IMG/VR virus record: IMGVR_UViG_3300045988_169645
DNA length: 64,000 nt
Source: a virus
Reading direction: 5' to 3' (one strand)
The stretch's first letter is position 1, and the number at the start of each line of letters is the position of its first letter. The position numbers and the translations under genes are program-made. This document shows positions 48,481 through 59,293 of this stretch, piece by piece. Under the pieces are notes generated by a model. That model searched no databases. It was not told where the DNA came from and worked only from the letters and a program-made list of their open reading frames with translations.

Positions 48481-49569
48481 CTACCCCTTTATTTTCTTCA
48501 TTCTTTCAGTCATTTCTCTTCTATCAAAAGCATAGTCAAGAGCTGTATCTCTAGTTATCACCTTTTTCTTGTATAAGTCTAGTATGGTTGAGTCCATACT
48601 CACCATTCCTTGGTCAAGAGCTTCCTTTGTTAAGAGATAATCTGGAATTTCATCAACACGTTTATCCCTAATCATACGCTGTAACTCTTTATTTTTGAAC
48701 ATAACCTCAAATGCTACAACGTACCCTTTTCCATCGGCTCTAGGTAATAACTGCTGAGATACAACAGCTTCTAATATAGCACATAACTGACTTCTTACCT
48801 GATTATGCTGTGCTTCTGGGTACATATCAATAATACGATTTATAGTATCTGCTGCACCTAATGTATGAAGTGTACTACAAACCAAATGACCTGTTTCTGC
48901 TGATTGTAAAGCAATCTCTGTAGTCTCCAAATCACGCATCTCACCGATAAGAATAACATCTGGGTCTTCACGAAGTGCTGCTCTAAGCCCATTAGCGAAA
49001 CTATCACAATCTGTACCAATCTCTCGTTGATTTATAATACTTCTCGAATGCCAATGTAAATACTCGATAGGTTCTTCAAGTGTAATAATATGCTTATATA
49101 AGTTCTTATTTATAATATCCAAAAAACTTGCCAATGTAGTAGACTTACCTGAACCAGTCGGTCCGACAACTAATATCAAACCTCTACGCTTCTTATATAG
49201 ATTAAATACATTCAATGGTAAACCTAATTTTGTATAACTTGGAACTGTTTCATTAAGAACTCGAAATACCCCTGCTAAATCGCCTTTTTGCTTAAAAACG
49301 TTGCACCTCAATCTTGCTACGCTATGTACAGAATAAGCAAAGTCATATTGCCCATTTGTATTTAATATTGATTTAGCTAAAGTATCTAGCAATGGGAAAA
49401 AAAGAGTCTCAGCTATATTCGGTGTAATTATCGCATAATTCATATTTTGTAACTCACCATGTATTCTAACTCTTGGTTGTGCACCTACGCTTATATGTAA
49501 ATCACTACCCCCCATTTGTACTGCTTCTGTAATTAATTTATCTATATTATTGGCAATCTCCATAATCAA
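48481..49569 (-). CDS. pilT: PilT-family (type IV pilus retraction / secretion) ATPase
   Basis: GLILVVGPTGSGKSTTL (Walker A). IITLEEPIEY. DPDVILIGEMRDLETTEIALQSAETGHLVCSTLHT. 362 aa, PilT size. Confidence 0.85.
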   Translation of the reverse strand: MIMEIANNIDKLITEAVQMGGSDLHISVGAQPRVRIHGELQNMNYAIITPNIAETLFFPLLDTLAKSILNTNGQYDFAYSVHSVARLRCNVFKQKGDLAGVFRVLNETVPSYTKLGLPLNVFNLYKKRRGLILVVGPTGSGKSTTLASFLDIINKNLYKHIITLEEPIEYLHWHSRSIINQREIGTDCDSFANGLRAALREDPDVILIGEMRDLETTEIALQSAETGHLVCSTLHTLGAADTINRIIDMYPEAQHNQVRSQLCAILEAVVSQQLLPRADGKGYVVAFEVMFKNKELQRMIRDKRVDEIPDYLLTKEALDQGMVSMDSTILDLYKKKVITRDTALDYAFDRREMTERMKKIKG

Positions 49570-50767
49570 CTATCCTCCTTTTACTACTTAAAGTGCTTGC
49601 AGTAATTTTACTAATTAAATCAACACTTAATTTATACCTAACTTTTATACCTAATACAGCTAACAAAGAATTCATCATTTCCTCAAAAACATCTAATCCT
49701 TTATTATACCTTAACGATATATAATTACTTGCAAAAATTTGATAAGAATTACTATTAAGTTTTGGTAGTCTATATTCCCTTAACCTAATTACCTTAACAC
49801 CATTTTGTTCGCATAAATTATCCTTTAATGTATCAAGACCTATTCTATTTTGATGAAATGTTCGTCCATCATATTCTATTGCTATTCTTCTACTCGGTAT
49901 ATAAATATCTAATTCTAACTTATAATTATTATAACCTAACAACCAATCTGGTCTATAATTATACTTGCAATCAAACCATTTTCCTATCTCAATCTGCATT
50001 AATTTCTCTGGTGCAGATTTCATGCAAATAGGGCAATCACCGTTTTGATATAAAAAAGTATATAATTTCATTTTAAAAATAGTTCCACAAACTAAATGCT
50101 CGAATTCAGCATCTGCTATACTATTCTTATAGCTTAAAAGTTTATATTCTGAAGTATGAGCATTAACTAATCTTTCTACTTCTTCAAAACTTCTTACACT
50201 AACACCTGATTTTGTACATCTTGGACATCTTTGTCCTCGTTTAAAATTTGCAGCTGTAACATCATAAACTAAACCACAACTATTATGCTTTAAAGTTACT
50301 TTATTATTTGCTCCTGTATATTCTGATAATAAAGTATAATCACTGCCAACTGTATTAAATATAAATTCCTTAAATGAATTAGTTGTTCCTTTTACTTTTC
50401 CATAACATTTAAGACATCGCTTACCTGATAAAATCAATCTTGGTTCCTGTTCGTATTTACTTCCACAAATATTATGTCGTATAAGTATTTTATTTGTACC
50501 TTTTGTGTAATCACCTAAAACAGTATATTCATCCCCATATAAATTATAAACTTCCTCTTTAAAAAATCTTGTACTTTTTGATGCACCCCCACTGATAACT
50601 TCACATAATAGACTATCAGTTCTTTTACAATACAAAACACCCTTTATTTTAACTCCCAAATTTACAATATAATTATATAACTCTGAATAAGTTACTGCAT
50701 CAACAACAGAATCCTTAGAATCAGATACATAATATAAATTATTCTTATAACCTAAGTAACTAAACAA
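49547..50767 (-). CDS. protein with three zinc-ribbon repeats and a C-terminal Vsr/DUF559-like PD-(D/E)xK endonuclease-type domain
   Basis: Repeat Y(T/S)(L/V)L.(E/D)YTG.N.K(V/I)...H..CG..Y...........RC..C three times. C-terminal block is ...LELDIYIPSRRIAIEYDGRTFH. Confidence 0.45.
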   Translation of the reverse strand: MFSYLGYKNNLYYVSDSKDSVVDAVTYSELYNYIVNLGVKIKGVLYCKRTDSLLCEVISGGASKSTRFFKEEVYNLYGDEYTVLGDYTKGTNKILIRHNICGSKYEQEPRLILSGKRCLKCYGKVKGTTNSFKEFIFNTVGSDYTLLSEYTGANNKVTLKHNSCGLVYDVTAANFKRGQRCPRCTKSGVSVRSFEEVERLVNAHTSEYKLLSYKNSIADAEFEHLVCGTIFKMKLYTFLYQNGDCPICMKSAPEKLMQIEIGKWFDCKYNYRPDWLLGYNNYKLELDIYIPSRRIAIEYDGRTFHQNRIGLDTLKDNLCEQNGVKVIRLREYRLPKLNSNSYQIFASNYISLRYNKGLDVFEEMMNSLLAVLGIKVRYKLSVDLISKITASTLSSKRRIVDYGDCQ

Positions 50768-50780
50768 AAATAATCATCTC

Positions 50781-51605
50781 CTAAATTTCATATCGTTTAT
50801 AAAAACCCTTAAATGGCTTTTTATTACTGTAAAAAGCTTTTTGACTTTCATCCTCACAACAAAAACAAAGTTCAACTTCATTTTCAGTAAGTTCTACATC
50901 AATAAAACCATCAAAAATATCTACCCCTGCTATTTTTGAATAAAAATATTGAAAATCCTCATTATGTAGAATACAGTCACTCAATACAATACAAGTAATA
51001 CCTGATTTAGTTGTAATTGTTGTTAAATGATGAAAGTAATCTACATTACAGCAATTATTTAGTAATAACTTTATAAAATCAATATACTTTTCACTAAAAT
51101 CACGAATACCTGAATACATTAAGATATTTCCTCTAAATCTACTAGACTTTTTCGATGGATCTGTCATTGTATAATTCCAATTCTTATAAAGCAAATCCTT
51201 GAAATCAGTTAAATCAGATAAATCATCATTCATATTTAAAAACTTTGATGGTAAAATATGTCTGAATAAAGCTTCTTCATATGTGAAACCTAAATCAATA
51301 ACATCTACCCCTATTTCGTGTAACTTTTGTGGGCAACTACCTCCTACTTCGTCTCTATAAATTTTTAACTTAAAATTATTATAAGACATTGGCTCTAAAT
51401 CTTGAGTAAATGCAACAAAAGATGAGTAATCCTCAATTTCGTAACCAAGTATAGCTTTTAAAATATCTGCCTTATTATTTAATACTTTATCTCTAATTTG
51501 TAATCTACAATCTGGTAAAGGATAACCAGTTTCTTCAACTCTTACTTCATTATCCTCAAAAACTAACATTTTTCCATCTTTTAACTGAGATATGTAAAAT
51601 TTCAT
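50781..51605 (-). CDS. hypothetical protein
   Basis: 274 aa ORF. Confidence 0.45.
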   Translation of the reverse strand: MKFYISQLKDGKMLVFEDNEVRVEETGYPLPDCRLQIRDKVLNNKADILKAILGYEIEDYSSFVAFTQDLEPMSYNNFKLKIYRDEVGGSCPQKLHEIGVDVIDLGFTYEEALFRHILPSKFLNMNDDLSDLTDFKDLLYKNWNYTMTDPSKKSSRFRGNILMYSGIRDFSEKYIDFIKLLLNNCCNVDYFHHLTTITTKSGITCIVLSDCILHNEDFQYFYSKIAGVDIFDGFIDVELTENEVELCFCCEDESQKAFYSNKKPFKGFYKRYEI

Positions 51606-51763
51606 TCTTCATACTTCTCCTTAAACTCTGTATATTGTAAAGCAATATTACTTTTACCTGCCTGATAATTTTCATGATTCTCTGGGTAAGAAACAATAAC
51701 CTTTTCCTTATAAATAAGTTGTTCAGAATTCTAGTCTAAACTCTTTACTGCCTTTTAATGAAA

Positions 51764-52468
51764 TTAAATAATGCATGGATTTTTGACCTCCTTAGACTGT
51801 ATTCTTCCATCTACATCCTTAAAATATGTACAAGTATCTGTAGTCAAATTATATAAAATCTGACAACCTCCAAAAATGTTACCACCATCAATATACCTAC
51901 AATTATCTAAATAAGGATTGTTAAGTCCTGCACTTCCTATAGGTACATGACCATGTATATAAATGTCTGTATTATTTCTATCACTAACAGCAGTCAATAG
52001 TTCTGAATCCCATAAACAATTATATACAAGCTTTGAATTTTCAAATTTGATAATATCATCTATCCCTTTATAATAACAGCCATGAACTAAAACAAATTTT
52101 TTACTATTGACGACTAACTGTTCGCAAATTTTTCTTGATAATAAGTAATCTAAAAGATTATCATATTCTATACTTGGCAACGATATCAAAGACTGTGCAG
52201 TAGCTTCTCCACCATTTTGCTTCGAAATCCAAGTATTCATTATATACTCACTTCCAAAAATCATCGACATTATAAGAAACCACTCATGATTACCAAGTAA
52301 AAGTTCTACATTAGGTCTTTTCATAATATCCTGAAGAATTGTAATACCTAAGCTACCCCTATCAATCACATCTCCTACTATGTACAATAGGTCGTCACCT
52401 TTTAACATATTAACTATGTGACTATACATGGCTAAATCACCATGTATATCACTAACTGCATAAATCAT
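51764..52468 (-). CDS. calcineurin-like metallophosphoesterase (lambda PPase-type Ser/Thr protein phosphatase)
   Basis: AVSDIHGD (GDxHG). IVGDVIDRG (GDxxDRG). GNHE. Later His-containing VHG and GH motifs. Confidence 0.8.
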   Translation of the reverse strand: MIYAVSDIHGDLAMYSHIVNMLKGDDLLYIVGDVIDRGSLGITILQDIMKRPNVELLLGNHEWFLIMSMIFGSEYIMNTWISKQNGGEATAQSLISLPSIEYDNLLDYLLSRKICEQLVVNSKKFVLVHGCYYKGIDDIIKFENSKLVYNCLWDSELLTAVSDRNNTDIYIHGHVPIGSAGLNNPYLDNCRYIDGGNIFGGCQILYNLTTDTCTYFKDVDGRIQSKEVKNPCII

Positions 52469-52470
52469 AA

Positions 52471-54303
52471 TTAAGCCCCCACGTTAACTCTACTTAAAAC
52501 TTCTTCAATCTCTTTACCATTTAATGTTTCATACTCAAGTAGAGCCTTTGCTAACTTCTCTACTAAGTCGTAGTTTTTAGTTAGTAAATCAACAGTTTCT
52601 CCATAGAGCTCTTTAGACTTTCTCTGCATAAGTTCAAAAGCATTTGACTTATCAATAATCTGTCTTTCAGCTAAAACATTCATATCTAAAAGACCAAATT
52701 CTTCCTCAAAACCAAGCCTTGACACATATTCCTCTAATATACCTGTAGCTTGAGTGATATCGGAAGAAGCTCCTTGAGTAACTGAATTAAACTTAATTTG
52801 CTCACTTGCTCGACCTGCATAACAAATCTTTACTCTATTTTCATAATACTCTTTTGTAAGGAACTGTGTATCTGAATCCTCTCCGAAAACTACCCCTCCT
52901 ACTCCTGAAGTTGTACCAATAATTGATGCTCTTGACATAGGTTCACCTAATAGGTAATGCATAACTGCATGACCTGCTTCGTGGTAAGCTACAATTTTCT
53001 TATCCTCCTTGAAGTGTTCTTCTTTAGCTCTATTGCCTTTGAATACCTTCTTATCAATGGCTTCTTCCAAGCAAGCCATATCAATAAAAGGTTTCTTGTG
53101 CATTACTGCTATAATACTTGCTTCATTGCAAATTGCTGCAATATCAGCACCCGTGAAACCACTAACTTGTTTAGCTAAAGTTTCTACATCAATATCACTT
53201 GCCACTGAAAACTGCTCAAGATAAAATTCAAATAACTTAACTCTTACTTTCCAATCTCTAGGCTTATTTACAACAATCTGTCTATCAAAACGACCTGCTC
53301 TTGTAAGTGCGGAGTCTAATTTATCAGCTCTATTTGTAGCTGCTATGATAAACACACCATCTCGACCAGTAAAACCATCCATCTCCTGAAGTAAAGCATT
53401 GATTGTCTGCTCATTTTCAGTATTACTACCCCTAGTGTCTCGCTTAATACCGATTGAGTCGATTTCGTCAAAGAACACTATACAAGGTGCATTTTCTCTT
53501 GCAATTTTGAAAGTCTCTCTCACTCGTTTTGCACCTAAACCTACAAACATTTCAATAAGACTTGATGAATTTACATATATGAAAGGCACTCCTGCTTCTC
53601 CTGCAATAGCCTTTGCTATCAAAGTCTTACCAGTTCCTGGCTCACCTGAAAGTAAGATGCCTTTCGGTACTTTAGCACCAATCTCCTCACCTAAATCTCT
53701 ATTCTTAAGCAATTCTGTAATGAACTTTACATCATCAAGAATTTCATCCTGACCAATTACATCTGAAAACTTTACATTGCTTGTCTGGATAATATCTTTG
53801 GCTTCTACCCCTTTCGTTTGATCTTTCATCATTCGCATAATAATTACAATCCAAATAATAGGTACTGCTAAACTTACCATCATACTAAACATATCTACAA
53901 CAGTTGTATTATTTCTATCTAATACAAGATGTACATCGTGTTCGAGCATATCCTTTCTAAATGTATCGTATGCAGGATATTGAACTCTACGCTTGTCCTC
54001 ACTCTTGTATATGTATTCTTCTCGTTCCTCTTGAGTCATATCCTTAGTGTCATCATTTAGTAATGTATAAGTCATCCACTCATCTGAAGCACTATAATAT
54101 ACAGTATCAACCTTTCCGTTTTCTACATCATCAAGAAACTCTGTATATTCGACTTTTTCAATCTTAGCAATTTGCTGTGTCTTCACACTATTCATTATAG
54201 AGAACAGGCAAATAATACAAACTGTCCAAGATACTAATGCTCTTATGACTTTCTGTTTATTCTGCTTAATAAATTCTTTCAGTTTATTCCAGTTATCTTT
54301 CAA
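52471..54303 (-). CDS. ftsH: FtsH-like membrane-anchored AAA+ ATP-dependent zinc metalloprotease
   Basis: Two N-terminal TM helices. Walker A GEPGTGKT. IVFFDEIDSIG. Second region of homology ATNRADKLDSALTRAGRFDR. HEAGHA zinc site. TTG start with an AAGGAGG ribosome-binding site. Confidence 0.9.
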   Translation of the reverse strand: MKDNWNKLKEFIKQNKQKVIRALVSWTVCIICLFSIMNSVKTQQIAKIEKVEYTEFLDDVENGKVDTVYYSASDEWMTYTLLNDDTKDMTQEEREEYIYKSEDKRRVQYPAYDTFRKDMLEHDVHLVLDRNNTTVVDMFSMMVSLAVPIIWIVIIMRMMKDQTKGVEAKDIIQTSNVKFSDVIGQDEILDDVKFITELLKNRDLGEEIGAKVPKGILLSGEPGTGKTLIAKAIAGEAGVPFIYVNSSSLIEMFVGLGAKRVRETFKIARENAPCIVFFDEIDSIGIKRDTRGSNTENEQTINALLQEMDGFTGRDGVFIIAATNRADKLDSALTRAGRFDRQIVVNKPRDWKVRVKLFEFYLEQFSVASDIDVETLAKQVSGFTGADIAAICNEASIIAVMHKKPFIDMACLEEAIDKKVFKGNRAKEEHFKEDKKIVAYHEAGHAVMHYLLGEPMSRASIIGTTSGVGGVVFGEDSDTQFLTKEYYENRVKICYAGRASEQIKFNSVTQGASSDITQATGILEEYVSRLGFEEEFGLLDMNVLAERQIIDKSNAFELMQRKSKELYGETVDLLTKNYDLVEKLAKALLEYETLNGKEIEEVLSRVNVGA

Positions 54304-54351
54304 TGTTTAATCCTCCTTGTAATAACTTCTTTAATATATAAAAAATAACTA

Positions 54352-54627
54352 TCACCTAAATGCAGAGAACTTCTTACCCTCTACCCCTCTCGCATACTCT
54401 TCTAAAGCCTTTAAATTCTTTGAGAACGCATATATTACAGTGTCATCTAAATTAAAATCTGATGGTACTAATATATAAAATTCTGAACTGTGATTTACTA
54501 GCCATACCTCATAATAGCATTCTACAGGAGTATCGTAAACAAAAACCTCTCCTTCTTGACTGTAAGGCTGTTCCTTGTAACTTTTAACAACTTCTTCATA
54601 TTTGGCTTCTGACGTTATTTTACTCAT
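54352..54627 (-). CDS. hypothetical small protein
   Basis: 91 aa ORF between the flotillin terminator and ftsH. Confidence 0.4.
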   Translation of the reverse strand: MSKITSEAKYEEVVKSYKEQPYSQEGEVFVYDTPVECYYEVWLVNHSSEFYILVPSDFNLDDTVIYAFSKNLKALEEYARGVEGKKFSAFR

Positions 54628-54675
54628 AATATGCCTCCTAAAACATTTATAACATATAATTATAATACAGAATAT

Positions 54676-54704
54676 TAAAAAAGGACTAGGGAATTTCTCC
54701 CTAG
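54676..54704 (-). terminator. Rho-independent terminator (minus strand) after the flotillin-like gene
   Basis: CTAGGGA-gaaat-TCCCTAG followed by TCCTTTTTT on the minus strand. Confidence 0.6.
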
Positions 54705-54722
54705 CCCTCGCAAGAAGTAATA

Positions 54723-56266
54723 TTACTTCTTTTCGGTTGTGATATTGACATTGTTTTCTGTCTGAGCCTGAATTGTGTTAGCCTTCATAGCATCAGTTAA
54801 ATCGAATCCAGTTGTTTCTTTAACTGTCTCGACAACCTTTGCTAATGCTGTCGGTACATAATCTGTAACCTGAGCTACCCCATCAACTCCTCCAATAATG
54901 GAAATCTTGTCAATCTGCTCCATAGGCTTCGCAATTGCACCTGCAATCTCAGGTAACTTGTCGATAATCATCTGAGTTACACCTGCCTGATTCATCTTCT
55001 GCATAGCCTCTGCTCTTCTCTCAAGACCTTCAGCTTCTGCAAGAAGTTTTGCTCTTGTAGCTTCAGCCTCAGCAGAACCCTTCTTAGAGATAGCATCAGC
55101 CTCGGCTTCTGCTTTCTTACGAATTGCATCTGCCTGAGCTACTGCTGTAGCTGTAATGGCGTCTGCATCAGCCTGTGCGTCAATTCTCTTCTTTTCAGCT
55201 TCTGCCTCTGCTTTCTTGATAGCATTGAACTTAGAAGCCTCAGCCTCCTGCTCCTGTTTCTTACGATTTGCCTCAGCAGGTTTAACTACCTCTGAAAGAA
55301 GTTTCTTTTCCTTCTCAACAGCCTGCTGTTCTGCAAGTTCAGTGTTCTTCTGAGCCTGTGCAATCTGTACCTGAATTTCAGCCTCAGTAATCTCTTTCTG
55401 TCTTTGCTGTCTTACAAGTTCTGCATCTGACTGAGCCTGAATAACATCTTTCTCAGTAATCTTTGTCTGAATCTCACCTGCAAGTGCTGCTTTAGCCTGA
55501 GCCTTAGCTGCTTCTTCATCGTACTGAGCCTGCTTAACTGCCTGTTCTTTCTCAGCTTCTCTTACCTCTGTTCTCGCTTTGATTTTAGCCTGTTCTCCTG
55601 CACGAATATTCTCGGATGTTTTCTCATCCTGTTCACGCTGAGCATCAGACTTCTGAACCTCTGCATCCTTACGTCTCTGAGCGATTGTACCATCGCCTAA
55701 AGCCTTTATGTAACCATTCTCATCAGAAATATCTGTGATTGTGAAGTTCTTGACTTCAAGTCCCATTGTACTTAACTCAGTACCAACGACTTCCTGAACT
55801 CGACTAGAGAAACTTTCTCGGTTTGCATACAAATCTTCAACAGTCATTGTTGCAATAATCTCACGAAGTTTACCTTCAAGTACAGCAACAGCAGTTGACT
55901 TAATGTTATCAATGATTTCATTCTCATTTCTACCAGTAAACTGCTCAATAGCTGTAAGAATACTATCAGTAGAATTACTTACCTTAATAACAGCAGTAGT
56001 GCAAACTGAAATAGGAAACCCTTCATCGCAAGAGATTTGTTAGTCTCAACATGAAGTGGAATATTACCAAGTGAAATGTAGTCTATTCGTTCCAAACCCG
56101 GAATTACTAAGCCACCTCCACCAGTGATTACTCTCTTCTTAAGACCTGTAATAACACCTGCTTTATCCTGTGGTACTTTCTTCCACATAGAAAAGATAAG
56201 TGCTAATACCACAACTACTGCAACAGCAATTGCGACAATTGGTAACATCTGATTTAACATAGTCAA
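54723..56266 (-). pseudogene. flotillin-like SPFH/band-7 protein carrying a -1 frameshift (N-terminal part 55979..56266, remainder 54723 to about 56040)
   Basis: N-terminal ORF gives TM + KRVITGGGGLVIPGLERIDYISLGNIPLHVETN. The other frame continues QISCDEGFPISVCTTAVIKV...TMTVEDLYANRESF and a long Ala/Glu-rich flotillin tail. The join is at the AACAAA run around 56026-56036. Confidence 0.7.
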
Positions 56267-56338
56267 ATCCTCCTTATAATATTAAATTTTCAAAGTGCTC
56301 ACTCAAGATGTCTACCCCTTGATTTACTTTGCAAATAT

Positions 56339-56367
56339 ATTATAACATGGAACTTACCAAAAGTCAA
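56339..56367 (-). promoter_or_regulatory. near-consensus sigma-A-type promoter (minus strand): TTGACT - 17 nt - TGtTATAAT, upstream of the flotillin-like gene
   Basis: Minus-strand read TTGACTTTTGGTAAGTTCCATGTTATAAT. Confidence 0.6.
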
Positions 56368-56384
56368 GCATAAATCAAATAAAA

Positions 56385-56627
56385 TTAAACTTTATTTAAA
56401 GCTTTACCGTCAACTAATAGGAATAACTCTGCGATAGTTTTGATTTCTGTATACGGTTCATACTCCTTATATCCCTTTATATCTGATACTGATACAATTT
56501 GCAACTCATCTCGCATAGCTAAAGATAATGCACCAAATAAATACTTCATTTCACGCTCATTTTTGGTCTTGTAGTAACAAGAACCTTGCTTATCTCGTTC
56601 AGCAACTACTATTGTACTTGTAAGCAT
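56385..56627 (-). CDS. hypothetical small protein
   Basis: 80 aa ORF between the NfeD-like and flotillin-like genes. Confidence 0.4.
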   Translation of the reverse strand: MLTSTIVVAERDKQGSCYYKTKNEREMKYLFGALSLAMRDELQIVSVSDIKGYKEYEPYTEIKTIAELFLLVDGKALNKV

Positions 56628-56636
56628 ACGATACCC

Positions 56637-57167
56637 CTACATTTCTTTTACCAAAACATAATCATCTTTAAACTCTACAATACGAACCTTAGCACCTTGC
56701 TTGATATCTACTCCTGATACAGACTTAGCTGTTAAACTTACAGAAGAATCTCCAAATCTTTCAGCTACTATACTGCCAAAACCGTTTGCTGGTATAGTAT
56801 TTACAACCTTACAATTACTATACTTTAATAGTGATTTATCATCGGCTTCTGACTGATGTTTTTTAAGATACTTTGTAAAAGTTTGAACTAAAACAGCACC
56901 TACATAAGCTACTATTCCTCCAATAATATTTCTTACAATATATGGTAATGGGTTTAAAAGTAAACCCATTCCTCCAAATAACACTGATGCTAAACAAATT
57001 GCTCTCATAGATATAGGTAAAACACAAATATCAAGGTCTCCAATATCTACATCGAAGCCATCAAAGTCAATAAGTCCTGCAATAGACTCAAAACTATCAA
57101 GAACTAACGTAACTAACATAACAATAAGACCAACACTTATGCAATAAAAATATACTGTATTACTCAT
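56637..57167 (-). CDS. NfeD-like membrane protein (membrane segment + C-terminal OB-fold), the usual operon partner of SPFH/flotillin proteins
   Basis: N-terminal TM helices. C-terminal CKVVNTIPANGFGSIVAERFGDSSVSLTAKS...GAKVRIVEFKDDYVLVKE is typical of the NfeD beta-barrel. Confidence 0.6.
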   Translation of the reverse strand: MSNTVYFYCISVGLIVMLVTLVLDSFESIAGLIDFDGFDVDIGDLDICVLPISMRAICLASVLFGGMGLLLNPLPYIVRNIIGGIVAYVGAVLVQTFTKYLKKHQSEADDKSLLKYSNCKVVNTIPANGFGSIVAERFGDSSVSLTAKSVSGVDIKQGAKVRIVEFKDDYVLVKEM

Positions 57168-57169
57168 AA

Positions 57170-57409
57170 TTAAACCTCCTTATTGTACTGAAATGTTATG
57201 CTTGGGTAATTCATTTCTCTAAAGAATCTTGAAAAACCAGTTATATTATCTGCTGATAAAATACCTAAACTTACAAGAATAAGAGGACTTATTACAGAAA
57301 AACTTGCACCTGTATCCACTACTAAAGGAGTTTCAATATCATCATCTTTCTTTAGCTCCGCTGTACAGATATACTGTCTATAATCTTTAATATAATTAAA
57401 TTTAATCAT
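57170..57409 (-). CDS. retropepsin-like (clan AA) aspartic protease, short
   Basis: PLVVDTGASFSVIS carries the D-T-G-A catalytic motif. 79 aa. The upstream 57410-57690 region contains only stop-riddled fragments. Confidence 0.5.
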   Translation of the reverse strand: MIKFNYIKDYRQYICTAELKKDDDIETPLVVDTGASFSVISPLILVSLGILSADNITGFSRFFREMNYPSITFQYNKEV

Positions 57410-57670
57410 AATCTACCCCCTAATAATGGGTAAAAACACTTTCTACCAGTGCCTCTATTAAAAGCTATCAACTCATCTCTGTAGATATAGTCACAGAAAG
57501 CGTATACAATCATCTTATACCCCGTAGACTCATCAAGTTCAAAATCTTTATTTATTGAACATATAGGTGCTACCTCATTATCTCTTCACCAAACAAATGA
57601 TGTTTCAAAGGGCTCATCAAATACATTTAGATTGCCTTCTTTATGATATGGTGGTAAATCTACTGACTTT

Positions 57671-58045
57671 TTAGGAATTACTTGTAGCATTATTTGCCTC
57701 CTCAATCATTCTTTGTGTTTCTTCCTCTGAAATGCCTAAAACTACTCTATTGTACCAAAATGACTCTGTGTAAATTTCATTTCTCAAATCCTGTGGTAAA
57801 GGCTCTTTTCTTAATATCATGTCCTCTGCCTGTGATATTAAACTTTCATAATGCTGTGCTCGTTTCTTTACTTCTCCGTACAACTCTGTATCTGAAAAGA
57901 TATCAAAAGCTACTCCTAATTCTCTTAATACCTCTCTTTTTCTAATTCTATAAGCGACTCCACTACCCCCTATACTCATTCTCGGTACAGTTATTTTTGC
58001 ATCTTTAAAATTTAACTTAGCAAACTCTTCCTCTGCATTAAACAT
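57671..58045 (-). CDS. hypothetical protein
   Basis: 124 aa ORF. Confidence 0.45.
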   Translation of the reverse strand: MFNAEEEFAKLNFKDAKITVPRMSIGGSGVAYRIRKREVLRELGVAFDIFSDTELYGEVKKRAQHYESLISQAEDMILRKEPLPQDLRNEIYTESFWYNRVVLGISEEETQRMIEEANNATSNS

Positions 58046-58556
58046 TTGAATACCTCCTTAAATATATAACACCATAAGCTTTCAAAAGATTTATTGACTC
58101 TTTAAAATTTAAGTCTTTTATTACTTTAGTCAACTCTGGTAACTCTGACGTCTTAATCAATATATTTGCTATACCATTATTTTGCAGAGCCATTACAAAA
58201 TAAATACCATCATTGTCCGCAAAACTTACTAAATCAGTTTTAGAAAAACTACTGCAACTCGGATGATTATGTAAAAATAAGTATCTATGCATATGTAAGT
58301 CTTTACTATATTTTACATAATCATCTAAATTTACAGTCAATTGCACCTTATTTTCAATACCCTTAAACCATTGACTCCTTGTTAAATCAAAACTATCTAA
58401 TAATATACCACATTCATTAGAATCATTTTTATCCCTAGCTACCTGTAATAACTGTTTACTATAAACTTCTAAAATCTTACAAGTATTTTCATCATGATAA
58501 GGTAAATTTTTGATACTCACCCTATTTATATCTTCGTCTGTTATATAATGTTTCAT
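58038..58556 (-). CDS. RadC-like JAB/MPN metalloprotease-domain protein
   Basis: LFLHNHPSCSSFSKTDL fits the JAMM H-x-H-x(6-7)-S-x-x-D motif. Confidence 0.5.
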   Translation of the reverse strand: MKHYITDEDINRVSIKNLPYHDENTCKILEVYSKQLLQVARDKNDSNECGILLDSFDLTRSQWFKGIENKVQLTVNLDDYVKYSKDLHMHRYLFLHNHPSCSSFSKTDLVSFADNDGIYFVMALQNNGIANILIKTSELPELTKVIKDLNFKESINLLKAYGVIYLRRYSNV

Positions 58557-59293
58557 ACTTTAAATACTTCCTTAAAAGCCTTATAATTAGCTCCTCTAGG
58601 AATAGCAAAAACAACTTTATCGAAACAACTACCCCTCAAAGCTTCCTTAAATAAAGTAGCTACCTCTATAGGGTCTTGCTTAAAAACTCCACAACCAAAA
58701 GCACCTAATATCAAGGTCTTTACATTATTCTCAGATGCAATATCTACTACAAACTTAATTCGCTCAGCTAATGCTTTAGAATTCTCCTCTTCCGTAAAAC
58801 TATTATGCTGAAACATAATAGATTTATTTGGTGCTGGAACTGTAATAACAGAACAGTTAGTCTTATTATCAAATACAACATCTGGTGAATATAAGCCTCT
58901 ATTCATATACAAACCTCTATTTGTATGATTTCTATTCCACTCATAAAACATAGCATCAAATGTTGAAATAACACTATACAAATATGAGTGTCTACAAATG
59001 TCTTCCTCTTGAGCTGAACTACCCCTCATATAGCCTCCACCTGGGAACTTATACGAAGCGAAGTTTAAAACAGCCATATTTTCTGAACTGTATTTGTGAA
59101 TTGCACTAACTGAATCTAAATCAGCTATCTCGATGCTTGGTAAATCACCTGACATTTCAAGTTTGAAATCTCGCTCATAAACTTTAGTTCTGGCTATACT
59201 AGATTTGATATTTTCTCCGTATCTAACCTGCATATTTTTATTATTCTCAATAGCTCTTTTTGCTAACTCACTTTTTCTTGACCTGTAGTCCAT
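58553..59293 (-). CDS. bacterial-type poly(ADP-ribose) glycohydrolase-like macrodomain protein (DUF2263-type)
   Basis: FPGGGYMRGSSAQEE matches the PARG signature GGG-x(6-8)-QEE. Macrodomain glycine-rich segment ILGAFGCGVF. Confidence 0.7.
   Translation of the reverse strand: MDYRSRKSELAKRAIENNKNMQVRYGENIKSSIARTKVYERDFKLEMSGDLPSIEIADLDSVSAIHKYSSENMAVLNFASYKFPGGGYMRGSSAQEEDICRHSYLYSVISTFDAMFYEWNRNHTNRGLYMNRGLYSPDVVFDNKTNCSVITVPAPNKSIMFQHNSFTEEENSKALAERIKFVVDIASENNVKTLILGAFGCGVFKQDPIEVATLFKEALRGSCFDKVVFAIPRGANYKAFKEVFKV

What the first reader, a model, noticed from the sequence alone, without database searches (positions are those of the whole stretch)
52471..57409. Phage-encoded membrane-microdomain module: NfeD-like, flotillin-like (SPFH), FtsH-like protease, plus a retropepsin-like protease
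- In transcription order the module is a retropepsin-like Asp protease (DTGA), an NfeD-like protein, an 80-aa ORF, a flotillin-like SPFH protein with its own consensus promoter and terminator, a 91-aa ORF, and then a full FtsH homologue (2 TM helices, AAA+ domain, HEAGH site).
- NfeD-SPFH operons are a bacterial hallmark, and in Bacillus the flotillins organise FtsH-containing membrane microdomains.
- I am not aware of a described phage-borne flotillin / NfeD / FtsH set. It suggests the phage builds or hijacks a membrane proteolysis platform.
Basis: partly seen in the sequence, partly recalled or inferred. Interest (0 to 1): 0.7.

Follow-up and report, generated by a model that had tools for sequence, protein, structure and literature searches.

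The report
Flotillin–NfeD operon captured beside element-encoded FtsH
A roughly 390-kb extrachromosomal element of gut Lachnospiraceae (huge phage or megaplasmid, unresolved) carries its own FtsH membrane protease with a host-derived NfeD–flotillin operon beside it, but in this copy the flotillin gene is broken by a 1-base deletion and the "retropepsin" is a deleted remnant.

Summary

**Confirmed**
- FtsH (52471-54303) is complete and has all its catalytic motifs.
- The SPFH protein is a true flotillin.
- The 176-aa protein is a YuaF-type NfeD. This rests on remote homology and synteny only.
- The promoter and terminator are present.

- The flotillin gene is split by a 1-nt deletion at 56018/56017. 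This null allele recurs on 6-7 long human-gut contigs.
- The "retropepsin" is a 79-aa remnant of a 186-aa protein.
- The 80-aa ORF is a DUF6718 protein.

**Comparative picture**
- FtsH is conserved across a clade of 210-500 kb contigs.
- NfeD–flotillin sits directly upstream of FtsH in at least three diverged lineages.
- These flotillins form one clade nested inside Lachnospiraceae flotillins (72-73% identity).
- An unrelated flotillin, plus SecY, sits beside FtsH in a fourth lineage.
- Six other lineages lack flotillin. At least four independent null alleles exist.

**Interpretation and caveats**
- A functional flotillin–FtsH link is plausible but inferred.
- "Phage-encoded" is not established. 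The window has no virion or plasmid hallmark genes. The closest FtsH in the curated plasmid and phage collections searched is on the Butyrivibrio megaplasmid pCY360. Similar gut megaplasmids are known to be misfiled as huge phages.
- Phage FtsH and phage flotillin annotations already exist.

The parts
52471..54303 (-). FtsH homologue, 610 aa, intact: 2 TM helices, extracytoplasmic domain, AAA+ module, M41 Zn-protease. It is a conserved gene of the element clade.
   Evidence: Pfam; motifs; PDB FtsH matches; 120 homologues of at least 57% identity, many on 210-500 kb contigs; invariant catalytic residues across 22 clade members.
54352..54627 (-). 91-aa acidic protein of unknown function. It belongs to a small paralogue family (91-101 aa) found near FtsH in relatives.
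   Evidence: No Pfam, PHROG or PADLOC hit. 69% identical to L086_92, 51% to L086_101 and 30-35% to the 94-aa gene. Its counterpart in L001/L003 is a different paralogue with an in-frame TGA.
54681..54709 (-). Intrinsic-terminator-like hairpin (13 bp, 6 GC pairs) followed by a T-run, just after the flotillin stop codon.
   Evidence: sequence.
54723..56260 (-). Flotillin (FloT/YuaG-type) gene, 512 codons when intact. Here it is disrupted by a 1-nt deletion between 56018 and 56017, giving a 93-aa N-terminal fragment (56260-55979) and a 374-aa C-terminal ORF (55847-54723).
   Evidence: Human flotillin-1/2 at 6.5e-51 in PDB. The exact fragments recur on 6-7 long contigs.
56339..56367 (-). Sigma-70/sigma-A-type promoter-like site, TTGACT-17-TATAAT with an extended -10 TG, upstream of flotillin. 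It is specific to the window/L001 lineage.
   Evidence: Absent in L092/L095, which have a hairpin there instead.
56385..56627 (-). 80-aa DUF6718 protein inserted between the NfeD-like gene and flotillin. It is absent at that place in bacteria and in L092/L095.
   Evidence: Pfam PF20476 6.3e-13; contexts.
56637..57167 (-). YuaF-type NfeD-like protein, 176 aa: about 3 N-terminal hydrophobic helices plus a C-terminal OB-like domain.
   Evidence: Profile to PDB 2K14 (YuaF) at 8.5e-6, the only hit. Pfam NfeD sub-threshold, reaching 1.1e-5 in the L095 orthologue. 38-41% identical to the gene upstream of bacterial flotillin. Hydropathy.
57170..57409 (-). 79-aa remnant of a 186-aa retropepsin-like aspartyl protease. 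It keeps DTGAS but lacks residues 75-181.
57406..57690 (-). 94-codon small gene (same paralogue family as ORF91) interrupted by an in-frame TGA (57588-57586) at a conserved Trp codon.
48481..52468 (-). Conserved downstream neighbours of FtsH: a metallophosphoesterase (51764-52468), a 274-aa protein (50781-51605) and a T2SS/T4P-type ATPase (48481-49569). In this window an HNH homing endonuclease (49547-50767) is inserted among them.
   Evidence: Pfam and PHROGs. The FtsH / ~274-aa / T2SSE order recurs in L003, L084, L086, L088, L092 and L157.

Best explanation
The window comes from a roughly 365-393 kb extrachromosomal element of human-gut Lachnospiraceae. Whether it is a huge phage or a megaplasmid is unresolved.

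The element has its own, long-diverged FtsH membrane protease as a conserved gene. FtsH lies in a block with a ~274-aa protein and a T2SS/T4P-type ATPase.

A bacterial two-gene operon, a YuaF-type nfeD gene followed by a FloT-type flotillin gene, was captured from a Lachnospiraceae host. It was placed immediately upstream of ftsH. It has been kept under purifying selection in several sublineages.

The most likely working model runs as follows:
1. NfeD binds and stabilises flotillin oligomers on the cytoplasmic face of the membrane.
2. These assemblies act as a scaffold or holdase platform.
3. That platform concentrates the element's FtsH, and probably other element-encoded envelope machines. 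The result is element-controlled quality control and turnover of membrane proteins.

The coupling is facultative, because many relatives keep FtsH alone.

In this particular genome the flotillin arm is inactivated by a recent 1-nt deletion. The neighbouring retropepsin-like gene and 94-codon gene are also broken. Here, only FtsH, the NfeD-like protein, DUF6718 and ORF91 can be functional.

Shown: gene identities, the frameshift, the host origin of nfeD-flotillin, recurrent adjacency to ftsH, purifying selection and recurrent loss. Inferred: physical or functional coupling of flotillin/NfeD with FtsH, and any benefit to the element.
For: **Identity**
-.

**FtsH is conserved in the clade**
- 120 homologues of at least 57% identity, many on 210-500 kb contigs.
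- It is intact (606-610 aa) in every close relative.
- Catalytic residues are invariant.

**Host origin of nfeD-flotillin**
- In an NJ tree the element's flotillins P0001-P0007 form one clade nested among bacterial flotillins.
- The best bacterial matches (72-73%) are Eubacterium plexicaudatum ASF492 and related Lachnospiraceae MAGs.
- 59 of 61 bacterial loci have the NfeD-like gene directly upstream. None of the 61 has FtsH within 6 kb.

**Recurrent adjacency to ftsH**
- Window/L001, L092 and L095.
- An independent flotillin of 32% identity lies directly upstream of FtsH in L004, preceded by a 226-aa gene and then SecY.
- Of the 80 best FtsH-bearing IMG/VR loci, only the clade member L004 has a flotillin nearby.

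**Selection (differing codons, synonymous/nonsynonymous, window vs L001)**
- Flotillin 29/2, NfeD 12/2, FtsH 12/2.
- The truncated L003 fusion shows 17/21, consistent with relaxed constraint.

**Known biology**
- NfeD binds flotillin and stabilises its oligomers (PMC11222466).
- B. subtilis FtsH interacts with FloA and FloT (PMC4409396).
Against: - No experiment or co-folding result links these three proteins.
- Flotillin has its own promoter and terminator here. L092 and L095 have a hairpin between nfeD and flotillin. The three genes are therefore not one transcription unit.
- The site upstream of ftsH is a hypervariable hot spot carrying unrelated cargo in relatives: a retropepsin-like gene and small paralogues in L086, a GDSL-like gene in L088/L157, and a serpin in L005.
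- Six of about ten lineages lack flotillin.
- At least four independent null alleles circulate: the window's allele, P0253, P0259 and the P0085 fusion. Flotillin is therefore dispensable.
- Flotillin's SPFH and coiled-coil parts are cytoplasmic. The periplasmic HflK/C cage geometry cannot simply be transferred to it.
Confidence: 0.5

Rival explanations
1. Coincidental neighbours. The nfeD-flotillin operon is an independent host-derived accessory cassette for membrane stabilisation or repair. It landed in a recombination hot spot that happens to lie upstream of ftsH, and it has no functional tie to FtsH.
For: - It has its own promoter and terminator.
- The hot spot carries unrelated cargo in relatives.
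- FtsH occurs without flotillin in most lineages.
- Loss is recurrent.
- In bacteria flotillin is never next to FtsH.
Against: - Two unrelated flotillins (32% identity) occupy the same position directly upstream of ftsH in separate lineages.
- The trio is contiguous in three lineages whose FtsH proteins are only 50-60% identical.
- FtsH-flotillin interaction is documented in B. subtilis.
Confidence: 0.3
2. The element is a megaplasmid or similar non-viral extrachromosomal element rather than a phage. The module is then plasmid-borne envelope housekeeping for long-term residence in the host, not a phage infection tool.
For: - The best FtsH match in the curated plasmid and phage collections searched is Butyrivibrio proteoclasticus megaplasmid pCY360 (46%, full length). 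300-720 kb Firmicutes plasmids follow at 35-39%. PA5oct-type phage FtsH reaches about 32%.
- pCY360 carries Rep, ParA/ParM, VirB4, VirD4, MobA and sortases, and has no annotated virion genes.
- About 50 window ORFs scanned show no terminase, capsid, portal or tail hit other than Phage_lysozyme2. The window also has a TnpB and no tRNA.
- Hodor megaplasmids (human gut, 211-389 kb) are classified as viral by geNomad and VirSorter2, with exactly TnpB and Phage_lysozyme2 as their phage-like hits (PMC12934698).
- Relatives carry envelope and surface cargo: type IV pilins, a prepilin peptidase, SecY, an LRR/Big_2 protein with a C-terminal PETG sorting-like signal, a rhomboid and an S41 protease.
Against: - The window and the flanks examined also show no Rep, Par, T4SS or relaxase hit (same calls).
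- Only 7 of 76 window ORFs match pCY360, without synteny.
- GC is 33% against 45-47% in Hodors.
- Two relatives are in IMG/VR.
- Phage-typical traits are present: a free-standing HNH homing endonuclease that is variably present, a LAGLIDADG insertion in PolA, and Thg1/RNA-ligase and ADP-ribosyl-toxin/NADAR genes in relatives.
Confidence: 0.5
3. The flotillin frameshift is bypassed by programmed -1 ribosomal slippage on the heptamer G_GGT_TTC that the deletion created. Full-length flotillin (V82F) is still made.
For: The deletion creates a formally perfect X_XXY_YYZ heptamer exactly at the frame junction.
Against: - The near-identical L001 and more than 70 other contigs encode an uninterrupted gene, so the site is a mutation and not a conserved signal.
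- There is no downstream stimulatory structure (MFE z=0.33).
Confidence: 0.03
4. The frameshift is a sequencing or assembly error and the gene is intact in the real genome.
For: A single-base indel is the commonest assembly error. There are only 2 nonsynonymous differences from L001, so no decay has accumulated.
Against: - The exact 93-aa and 374-aa products are recorded by JGI/IMG, ENA and Logan on 4-7 contigs of 365-388 kb, with the same neighbouring alleles.
- The deleted G is not in a homopolymer run.
Confidence: 0.08

Closest known systems
Bacillus subtilis yuaF-yuaG (nfeD-floT) operon and flotillin microdomains containing FtsH
   Same: - The gene pair and order are the same: a short TM-plus-OB-fold NfeD followed by a flotillin with an N-terminal anchor, an SPFH domain and an EA-rich coiled coil.
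- YuaF is the only PDB match of the 176-aa protein.
- FtsH is a documented FloA/FloT interactor (PMC4409396).
- NfeD stabilises flotillin oligomers (PMC11222466).
   Different: - Here the pair sits on a ~390-kb extrachromosomal element, physically next to a second, element-specific ftsH. That arrangement was found in none of 61 bacterial loci.
- A DUF6718 gene and a separate promoter are inserted between nfeD and flotillin.
- The flotillin is frameshifted in this copy.
E. coli HflK/HflC-FtsH supercomplex
   Same: An SPFH-family scaffold is paired with the FtsH AAA+ protease. The full-length window FtsH aligns to the FtsH chain of entry 7vhp, which from my own knowledge is the HflK/C-FtsH complex structure.
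   Different: Flotillin is a different SPFH subfamily. Its cage faces the cytoplasm rather than the periplasm. There is no HflK/HflC pair here, and the interaction is not shown.
FtsH of Pseudomonas jumbo phages MIJ3/PA5oct (Wroclawvirus) and Microcystis phage MaAM05
   Same: A full-length FtsH homologue on a large mobile genome, of unknown function (PMC6892783). It falls in the same PHROG family, phrog_30773.
   Different: - Identity is only about 32-36%.
- The PA5oct-like vB_Pa-PAC2 record pairs FtsH with an annotated 'FtsH-interacting integral membrane protein', ClpX and ClpP, not with flotillin/NfeD.
FtsH of Butyrivibrio proteoclasticus megaplasmid pCY360 and other Firmicutes megaplasmids
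   Same: It is the closest FtsH in the curated plasmid and phage collections searched (46%, full length including the N-terminal TM region) and lies on a 361-kb Lachnospiraceae replicon. pCY360 also carries PARG-like, metallophosphoesterase, HD and TnpB genes.
   Different: pCY360 has no flotillin or NfeD. Only 7 of 76 ORFs are shared, without synteny. It has clear plasmid and conjugation genes, which were not seen in the window.
'Flotillin family protein' of phage csAssE-Sib and Vibrio phage KIT04
   Same: An SPFH/flotillin gene is annotated in deposited phage genomes. In csAssE-Sib a small TM protein lies directly upstream, like nfeD.
   Different: Identity is only 28-30%. No FtsH lies within the 6 kb examined on either side of the csAssE-Sib flotillin; the KIT04 locus was not inspected. 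Neither has been studied.

Membership tests
FtsH (AAA+ / peptidase M41 membrane protease) | N-terminal two transmembrane helices flanking an extracytoplasmic domain | tested here: met
   Hydrophobic segments at about 18-41 and 133-161. FtsH_ext 2.1e-6, above the Pfam cut-off.
FtsH (AAA+ / peptidase M41 membrane protease) | AAA+ module with Walker A/B, an aromatic pore loop and the second region of homology | tested here: met
   GEPGTGKT220, DEID279, MFVG252, TNRADKLDSALTRAGRFDR323. Pfam AAA 5.3e-44.
FtsH (AAA+ / peptidase M41 membrane protease) | M41 domain with an HEXXH zinc site and a downstream acidic ligand | tested here: met
   HEAGH441. Peptidase_M41 5.7e-32. H441, E442, H445 and E501 are invariant in 22 clade members.
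FtsH (AAA+ / peptidase M41 membrane protease) | ATP-dependent proteolysis as a membrane hexamer | not testable with these tools
   Needs biochemistry.
Flotillin (SPFH/Band 7, FloT/YuaG type) | SPFH (Band_7) domain after an N-terminal membrane anchor | tested here: met
   Band_7 2e-25 on the repaired or intact sequence. Hydrophobic segment at residues 1-31.
Flotillin (SPFH/Band 7, FloT/YuaG type) | C-terminal flotillin domain with an EA-rich coiled coil | tested here: met
   Flot PF15975 1.2e-10. Human flotillin-1 6.5e-51 over residues 44-386.
Flotillin (SPFH/Band 7, FloT/YuaG type) | An uninterrupted reading frame in this window | tested here: not met
   A 1-nt deletion at 56018/56017 splits it into 93 and 374 codons. 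The allele recurs on 6-7 contigs.
NfeD (short, YuaF / NfeD1b type) | C-terminal OB-fold NfeD domain (PF01957) | tested here: inconclusive
   Pfam E=0.12, 13 bits against a cut-off of 29.1. Orthologues reach 1.1e-5 at 26 bits, still below the cut-off. A profile finds YuaF 2K14 at 8.5e-6 as the only hit.
NfeD (short, YuaF / NfeD1b type) | N-terminal membrane helices, with the gene immediately upstream of an SPFH gene | tested here: met
   About 3 hydrophobic segments. An orthologue lies directly upstream of flotillin in 59 of 61 bacterial loci and in L092 and L095.
Retropepsin-like aspartyl protease (Asp_protease_2 / gag-asp_proteas) | Catalytic D-T/S-G-A motif | tested here: met
   VVDTGAS at residues 30-36.
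Retropepsin-like aspartyl protease (Asp_protease_2 / gag-asp_proteas) | Complete fold of about 90 residues, including the second conserved hhG-D-hh motif, scoring above the family cut-off | tested here: not met
   19.5 bits against a cut-off of 24.3. Residues 75-181 of the 186-aa L003 homologue, including LLGIDFI, are deleted. The intact homologue passes (32.6 and 31.8 bits).
Tailed bacteriophage genome | Terminase, major capsid, portal and tail genes | tested here: inconclusive
   None among about 50 window ORFs in Pfam, PHROGs or NCBIfam; only Phage_lysozyme2. The window is only about 16% of the replicon. Two relatives are in IMG/VR, but such calls are unreliable for gut megaplasmids.
Conjugative megaplasmid (pCY360 / Hodor-like) | Rep, ParA/ParB/ParM, VirB4, VirD4 and a relaxase | tested here: inconclusive
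   None in the window or the flanks examined (same calls). An HD-domain protein and a RecD-like helicase are adjacent (6323-7348 and 8826-12086), but the HD domain is of HD_5 type and is not shown to be MOBH. FtsH is closest to pCY360, but only 7 of 76 ORFs are shared.

The most novel reading that the evidence does not exclude
The elements of this clade build their own membrane-protein homeostasis platform. A private FtsH recruited a flotillin scaffold at least twice independently: once as a Lachnospiraceae nfeD-floT operon, and once as an unrelated flotillin in a locus that also carries a private SecY. If the replicon proves to be a huge phage, this would be the first virus-encoded flotillin/NfeD/FtsH microdomain. 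The natural intact and null flotillin alleles would then serve as a ready-made genetic test.
Probability: 0.2. Interest if true: 0.7.

Novelty: new variant of a known kind. Interest (0 to 1): 0.45.

Why it matters
What bacterial flotillins do, and how they relate to FtsH, remains debated. This study finds a natural system in which a mobile element has physically joined an nfeD-flotillin operon to its own ftsH.

- The joining has happened in several lineages, and apparently twice independently.
- The flotillin is kept under strong purifying selection, yet also loses function repeatedly.
- Intact and null alleles therefore co-circulate in human guts.

That is comparative and population-genetic evidence for a facultative flotillin-FtsH partnership. 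It also provides a set of natural mutants to test it.

The case is a useful caution as well. A ~390-kb gut contig called 'phage' may be a megaplasmid. 'Phage-encoded' claims about envelope genes need hallmark genes from the whole replicon.

Tried and rejected
- **IMG/VR scans with single FtsH or flotillin sequences** found nothing. Only a 22-sequence FtsH alignment reached relatives.
- **blastn of the region against GenBank phages** gave only spurious Listeria fragments.
- **Programmed -1 frameshifting at GGGTTTC: rejected.** The intact allele is the norm and there is no downstream structure.
- **Genome-wide TGA-to-Trp recoding: not supported.** Only four TGA-joined ORF pairs exist in 64 kb.
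- **Defence-system reading: rejected.** PADLOC gives only generic AAA hits (IetA, TRIP13) for FtsH and nothing for flotillin or NfeD. The intact retropepsin hits the candidate PDC-M08B at 7e-6.
I did not repeat it, since the YuaF profile hit answered the question.
- **The exhaustive FtsH search of 1.84 billion representatives** gave a continuum of unannotated hits and no clade boundary.
- **Attempts to settle phage versus plasmid all failed.**
  - Family scans of about 50 ORFs.
  - tRNA scan.
  - Megablast against plasmids.
  - tblastn of the 762-aa ORF and of PolA against phages.
  - Full read-through of pCY360.
  - Search with the topoisomerase of relative L004.
  - Jug phages (360-402 kb, GC 27-30%, Bacteroides hosts) seem to be a different group.

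Full report
**What is in the window.**
Positions 52471-57690 hold a run of minus-strand genes. In transcription order they are:
1. A 94-codon small gene with an in-frame TGA (57690-57406).
2. A 79-aa ORF with a DTGAS motif (57409-57170).
3. A 176-aa membrane protein (57167-56637).
4. An 80-aa ORF (56627-56385).
5. A promoter-like site.
6. A flotillin gene (56260-54723).
7. A terminator.
8. A 91-aa ORF (54627-54352).
9. A 610-aa FtsH (54303-52471).

The whole 64-kb window is about 33% GC (27.9-38.6% per 2-kb bin). All of its large ORFs lie on one strand, and the GC skew is monotonic.

**FtsH.**
- The assignment is secure. Pfam gives AAA 5.3e-44, Peptidase_M41 5.7e-32, AAA_lid_3 and FtsH_ext.
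- It has two hydrophobic helices, Walker A and B motifs, the MFVG pore loop, the SRH and HEAGH.
- It aligns over its full length to solved FtsH structures.
- All catalytic residues are invariant in 22 relatives.

**Flotillin.**
It is not.
- The ORF listing gives a 95-aa N-terminal ORF (93 aa when read from the ATG) and a separate 374-aa ORF in the -1 frame.
- The near-identical contig L001 (302 kb) encodes an uninterrupted 512-aa protein (P0001). The alignment shows one missing G in the window, GGGTGTTCC to GGGT-TTCC, between 56018 and 56017.
- The repaired protein has Band_7 (2e-25) and Flot (1.2e-10). It matches human flotillin-1/2 at 6.5e-51.
- The exact 93-aa and 374-aa products are on record from JGI/IMG, ENA and Logan on 4-7 contigs of 365-388 kb. 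One is a human-gut assembly with the same neighbouring genes. The null allele is therefore real and circulating.
- The deletion happens to create a G_GGT_TTC slippery heptamer. However, the intact allele is the norm and no stimulatory structure follows (z=0.33). I reject programmed frameshifting.

**NfeD-like protein.**
- Pfam NfeD fails (E=0.12).
- The only PDB match is B. subtilis YuaF, the NfeD partner of FloT. It scores E=0.01 for the single sequence and 8.5e-6 for a 7-sequence profile covering the whole C-terminal domain.
- It is 38-41% identical to the gene immediately upstream of flotillin in Lachnospiraceae genomes.
- It has about three N-terminal hydrophobic helices.
- I accept 'YuaF-type NfeD-like' on remote homology plus synteny.

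**The other ORFs.**
- The 79-aa 'retropepsin' is below the Pfam cut-off.
  - It is an internal in-frame deletion of a 186-aa protein. Residues 75-181 are lost, including the second conserved motif.
  - The full-length form in L003 passes the Pfam cut-offs, and L086 has a diverged homologue of 29% identity.
- The 80-aa ORF is DUF6718.
- ORF91 belongs to a family of small acidic paralogues (91-101 aa) scattered upstream of ftsH in relatives.
The promoter is specific to this lineage.

**Relatives.**
- FtsH has 120 listed homologues of at least 57% identity, many on contigs of 210-500 kb.
- Contexts I read:

| Locus | FtsH identity to window | What lies upstream of FtsH |
|---|---|---|
| L001 | ~99% | as in the window, but flotillin intact |
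| L003 | ~98% | intact retropepsin, then an NfeD::flotillin C-terminal fusion in which DUF6718 and the SPFH domain are deleted |
| L084/L085 | 90% | nothing between ORF124 and FtsH |
| L086/L087 | 82% | small paralogues and a retropepsin-like gene, no flotillin |
| L088/L089, L157, L158, L005 | 56-68% | no flotillin |
| L092 | 60% | NfeD-like, flotillin, FtsH contiguous |
| L095 | N-terminus 50% | ORF124-like, NfeD-like, flotillin, FtsH |
| L004 | 59% | SecY (Pfam 1e-76), a 226-aa gene, then a flotillin only 32% identical to the window's; no NfeD |

- Among the 80 best FtsH-bearing IMG/VR loci, only L004 has a flotillin nearby.
- The conserved partners of ftsH are a ~274-aa protein and a T2SS/T4P-type ATPase downstream of it.

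**Origin and selection.**
- An NJ tree of 118 flotillins, with the L004 flotillin as outgroup, places the element's versions (P0001-P0007) in one clade nested among bacterial ones.
- The nearest bacterial proteins (72-73%) are from Eubacterium plexicaudatum ASF492 and related Lachnospiraceae MAGs.
- In 59 of 61 bacterial loci the NfeD-like gene is directly upstream. In none is FtsH, DUF6718, ORF91 or the retropepsin within 6 kb.
- So the two-gene operon was captured from a Lachnospiraceae host, and its juxtaposition with ftsH is an innovation of the element.
- FtsH is much further from any bacterial FtsH I could identify. It is 38-39% identical, over the C-terminal ~74% of the query, to Enterococcus and Listeria FtsH sequences that are probably host-derived entries in the phage collection.
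- Differing codons between window and L001, synonymous/nonsynonymous, are 29/2 for flotillin, 12/2 for NfeD and 12/2 for FtsH. The L003 remnant shows 17/21. That means purifying selection until very recently, and relaxed constraint once the gene is truncated.
- At least four independent null alleles exist: the window's allele, P0253 (another 1-nt deletion), P0259 (a large deletion) and the P0085 fusion. Intact alleles occur on at least 70 contigs, and FtsH is always intact.

**Is it a phage?**
I could not establish this.

*Against a phage:*
- About 50 window ORFs scanned against Pfam, PHROGs or NCBIfam gave replication, regulatory and conflict functions. These include PolA with a LAGLIDADG insert, a RecD-like helicase, a sigma factor, a ligase-like protein, HD proteins, PARG, an HNH endonuclease and TnpB.
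- No virion protein was found. The only structural-sounding hit is Phage_lysozyme2. There is no tRNA.
- tblastn against PLSDB put the best FtsH match on the 361-kb Butyrivibrio proteoclasticus megaplasmid pCY360 (46%, full length). Firmicutes plasmids of 300-720 kb follow.
- I read pCY360 end to end. It has Rep, ParA, ParM, VirB4, VirD4, MobA, sortases and Cas12a, and no annotated virion genes.
- A 2026 preprint describes human-gut 'Hodor' megaplasmids (211-389 kb). They were filed as huge phages by geNomad and VirSorter2, and their phage-like hits are TnpB and Phage_lysozyme2 (PMC12934698). The IMG/VR membership of L004 and L005 is therefore weak evidence.

*Against a plasmid:*
- Only 7 of 76 window ORFs match pCY360, without synteny.
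- GC differs from Hodors.
- No Rep, Par or T4SS gene was seen.
- Homing endonucleases and an intein-like insert are phage-typical.

I put phage and megaplasmid at roughly even odds.

**Mechanism.**

*Shown:*
- The identities of the genes.
- Host capture of the nfeD-flotillin operon.
- Repeated placement next to a private ftsH.
- Selection on the operon, and its dispensability.

*Established elsewhere:*
- NfeD binds flotillin and stabilises its oligomers, and flotillin acts as an ATP-independent holdase in membrane microdomains (PMC11222466).
- B. subtilis FtsH interacts with FloA and FloT (PMC4409396).
- SPFH cages regulate FtsH in E. coli. This last point rests on my own knowledge of the HflK/C structures.

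*Inferred:*
- The element's NfeD-flotillin assemblies scaffold its FtsH, and perhaps other element-encoded envelope machines, for controlled turnover of membrane proteins. Candidates seen in relatives include type IV pilus genes in L086, SecY in L004, and rhomboid and S41 proteases in L088 and L157.
- The link is facultative.
- The main rival is coincidental placement in a cargo hot spot.

**Prior knowledge and novelty.**
- Phage FtsH was first reported for MIJ3/PA5oct in 2019, with function unknown. It forms PHROG family phrog_30773. In the PA5oct-like vB_Pa-PAC2 record it lies next to an annotated 'FtsH-interacting integral membrane protein', ClpX and ClpP.
- Flotillin-family proteins are annotated in Vibrio phage KIT04 and phage csAssE-Sib.
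- Five jumbo- and huge-phage reviews and surveys contain none of the terms FtsH, flotillin or SPFH. Three further papers searched, including the Hodor preprint, mention neither FtsH nor flotillin.
- The individual genes are ordinary family members.
- The new element is the recurrent fusion of an nfeD-flotillin operon with an element-specific ftsH, together with its population of null alleles. I rate this a new variant of a known kind, of moderate interest.

Noticed in passing
window 57586-57588; L001 11758-11760; L003 11611-11613: In-frame TGA codons sit exactly where homologues have a conserved Trp, in two different small genes: the 94-codon gene in window/L001, and the ORF101-like gene in L001/L003. 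The downstream frame is intact in both. This is either two W-to-stop mutations or local TGA read-through.
   Followed up: partly
window 13580-14905 (TGA at 14537-14539): A 122-aa ORF with a signal-peptide-like N-terminus ends in TGA. It continues in frame, without further stops, into the 286-aa membrane-protein ORF. This could be one 442-aa gene split by TGA. Only four such TGA-joined pairs exist in the window.
   Followed up: partly
L004 6178-7533: A relative in IMG/VR (290 kb) encodes its own SecY (Pfam 1e-76). It lies two genes upstream of its flotillin-FtsH pair and just after a GyrB/GyrA-like topoisomerase pair.
   Followed up: partly
L086 1-4634; window 48481-49569: Relative L086 (419 kb) carries a type IV pilus-like set: T2SSF, at least five N_methyl pilins and a prepilin peptidase. 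The order FtsH / ~274-aa protein / T2SSE ATPase is conserved across most lineages.
   Followed up: partly
window 49547-50767: A 406-aa HNH homing endonuclease (phrog_559, 1.5e-50) is inserted between the 274-aa gene and the T2SSE ATPase. L001 has an ORF at this position (370 aa as called). L003, L084 and L086 have none.
   Followed up: partly
window 19728-24272: A 1514-aa family-A DNA polymerase carries a LAGLIDADG domain (residues 1005-1079), which looks like an intein or homing-endonuclease insertion.
   Followed up: no
window 6323-12086: An HD_5 phosphohydrolase, a TnpB (OrfB_IS605 plus Cas12f-like TNB) and a 1086-aa RecD-like helicase (AAA_30, UvrD_C_2, SH3_13) lie side by side. This resembles the split HD-relaxase-plus-helicase described for Hodor megaplasmids, but MOBH identity is not shown.
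   Followed up: partly
window 31625-33565: A 646-aa ORF has no Pfam, PHROG or NCBIfam hit but contains an NPPY motif (FLCNPPYK) and GEFYTP. That suggests a divergent N6-adenine DNA methyltransferase.
   Followed up: no
window 54352-54627, 57406-57690; L086 8474-9446: A family of small acidic proteins (91-101 aa, core motif YKE-PY-QEG-VFVYD-P-ECY-EVW) occurs in 2-3 paralogous copies just upstream of ftsH in several relatives. Its function is unknown. A role as FtsH adaptors or inhibitors is pure speculation.
   Followed up: partly
L005 8520-9908; L088 2483-3082 and 15842-17002; L157 3241-3831 and 11286-12479: Other protease-related cargo lies around ftsH in relatives: a serpin directly upstream in L005, and rhomboid and PDZ-S41 proteases in L088 and L157.
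   Followed up: no
window 56385-56627 vs L001 9634-9876: The DUF6718 gene is only 89% identical to L001 (21 synonymous and 9 nonsynonymous codon differences), while the flanking genes are 98-100% identical. This suggests allele exchange by recombination.
   Followed up: no
window 58553-59293, 61876-63180: A microbial-type PARG (2e-28) and a YkuD L,D-transpeptidase with a PG_binding_4 domain lie upstream of the module. Both are conserved in close relatives.
   Followed up: no
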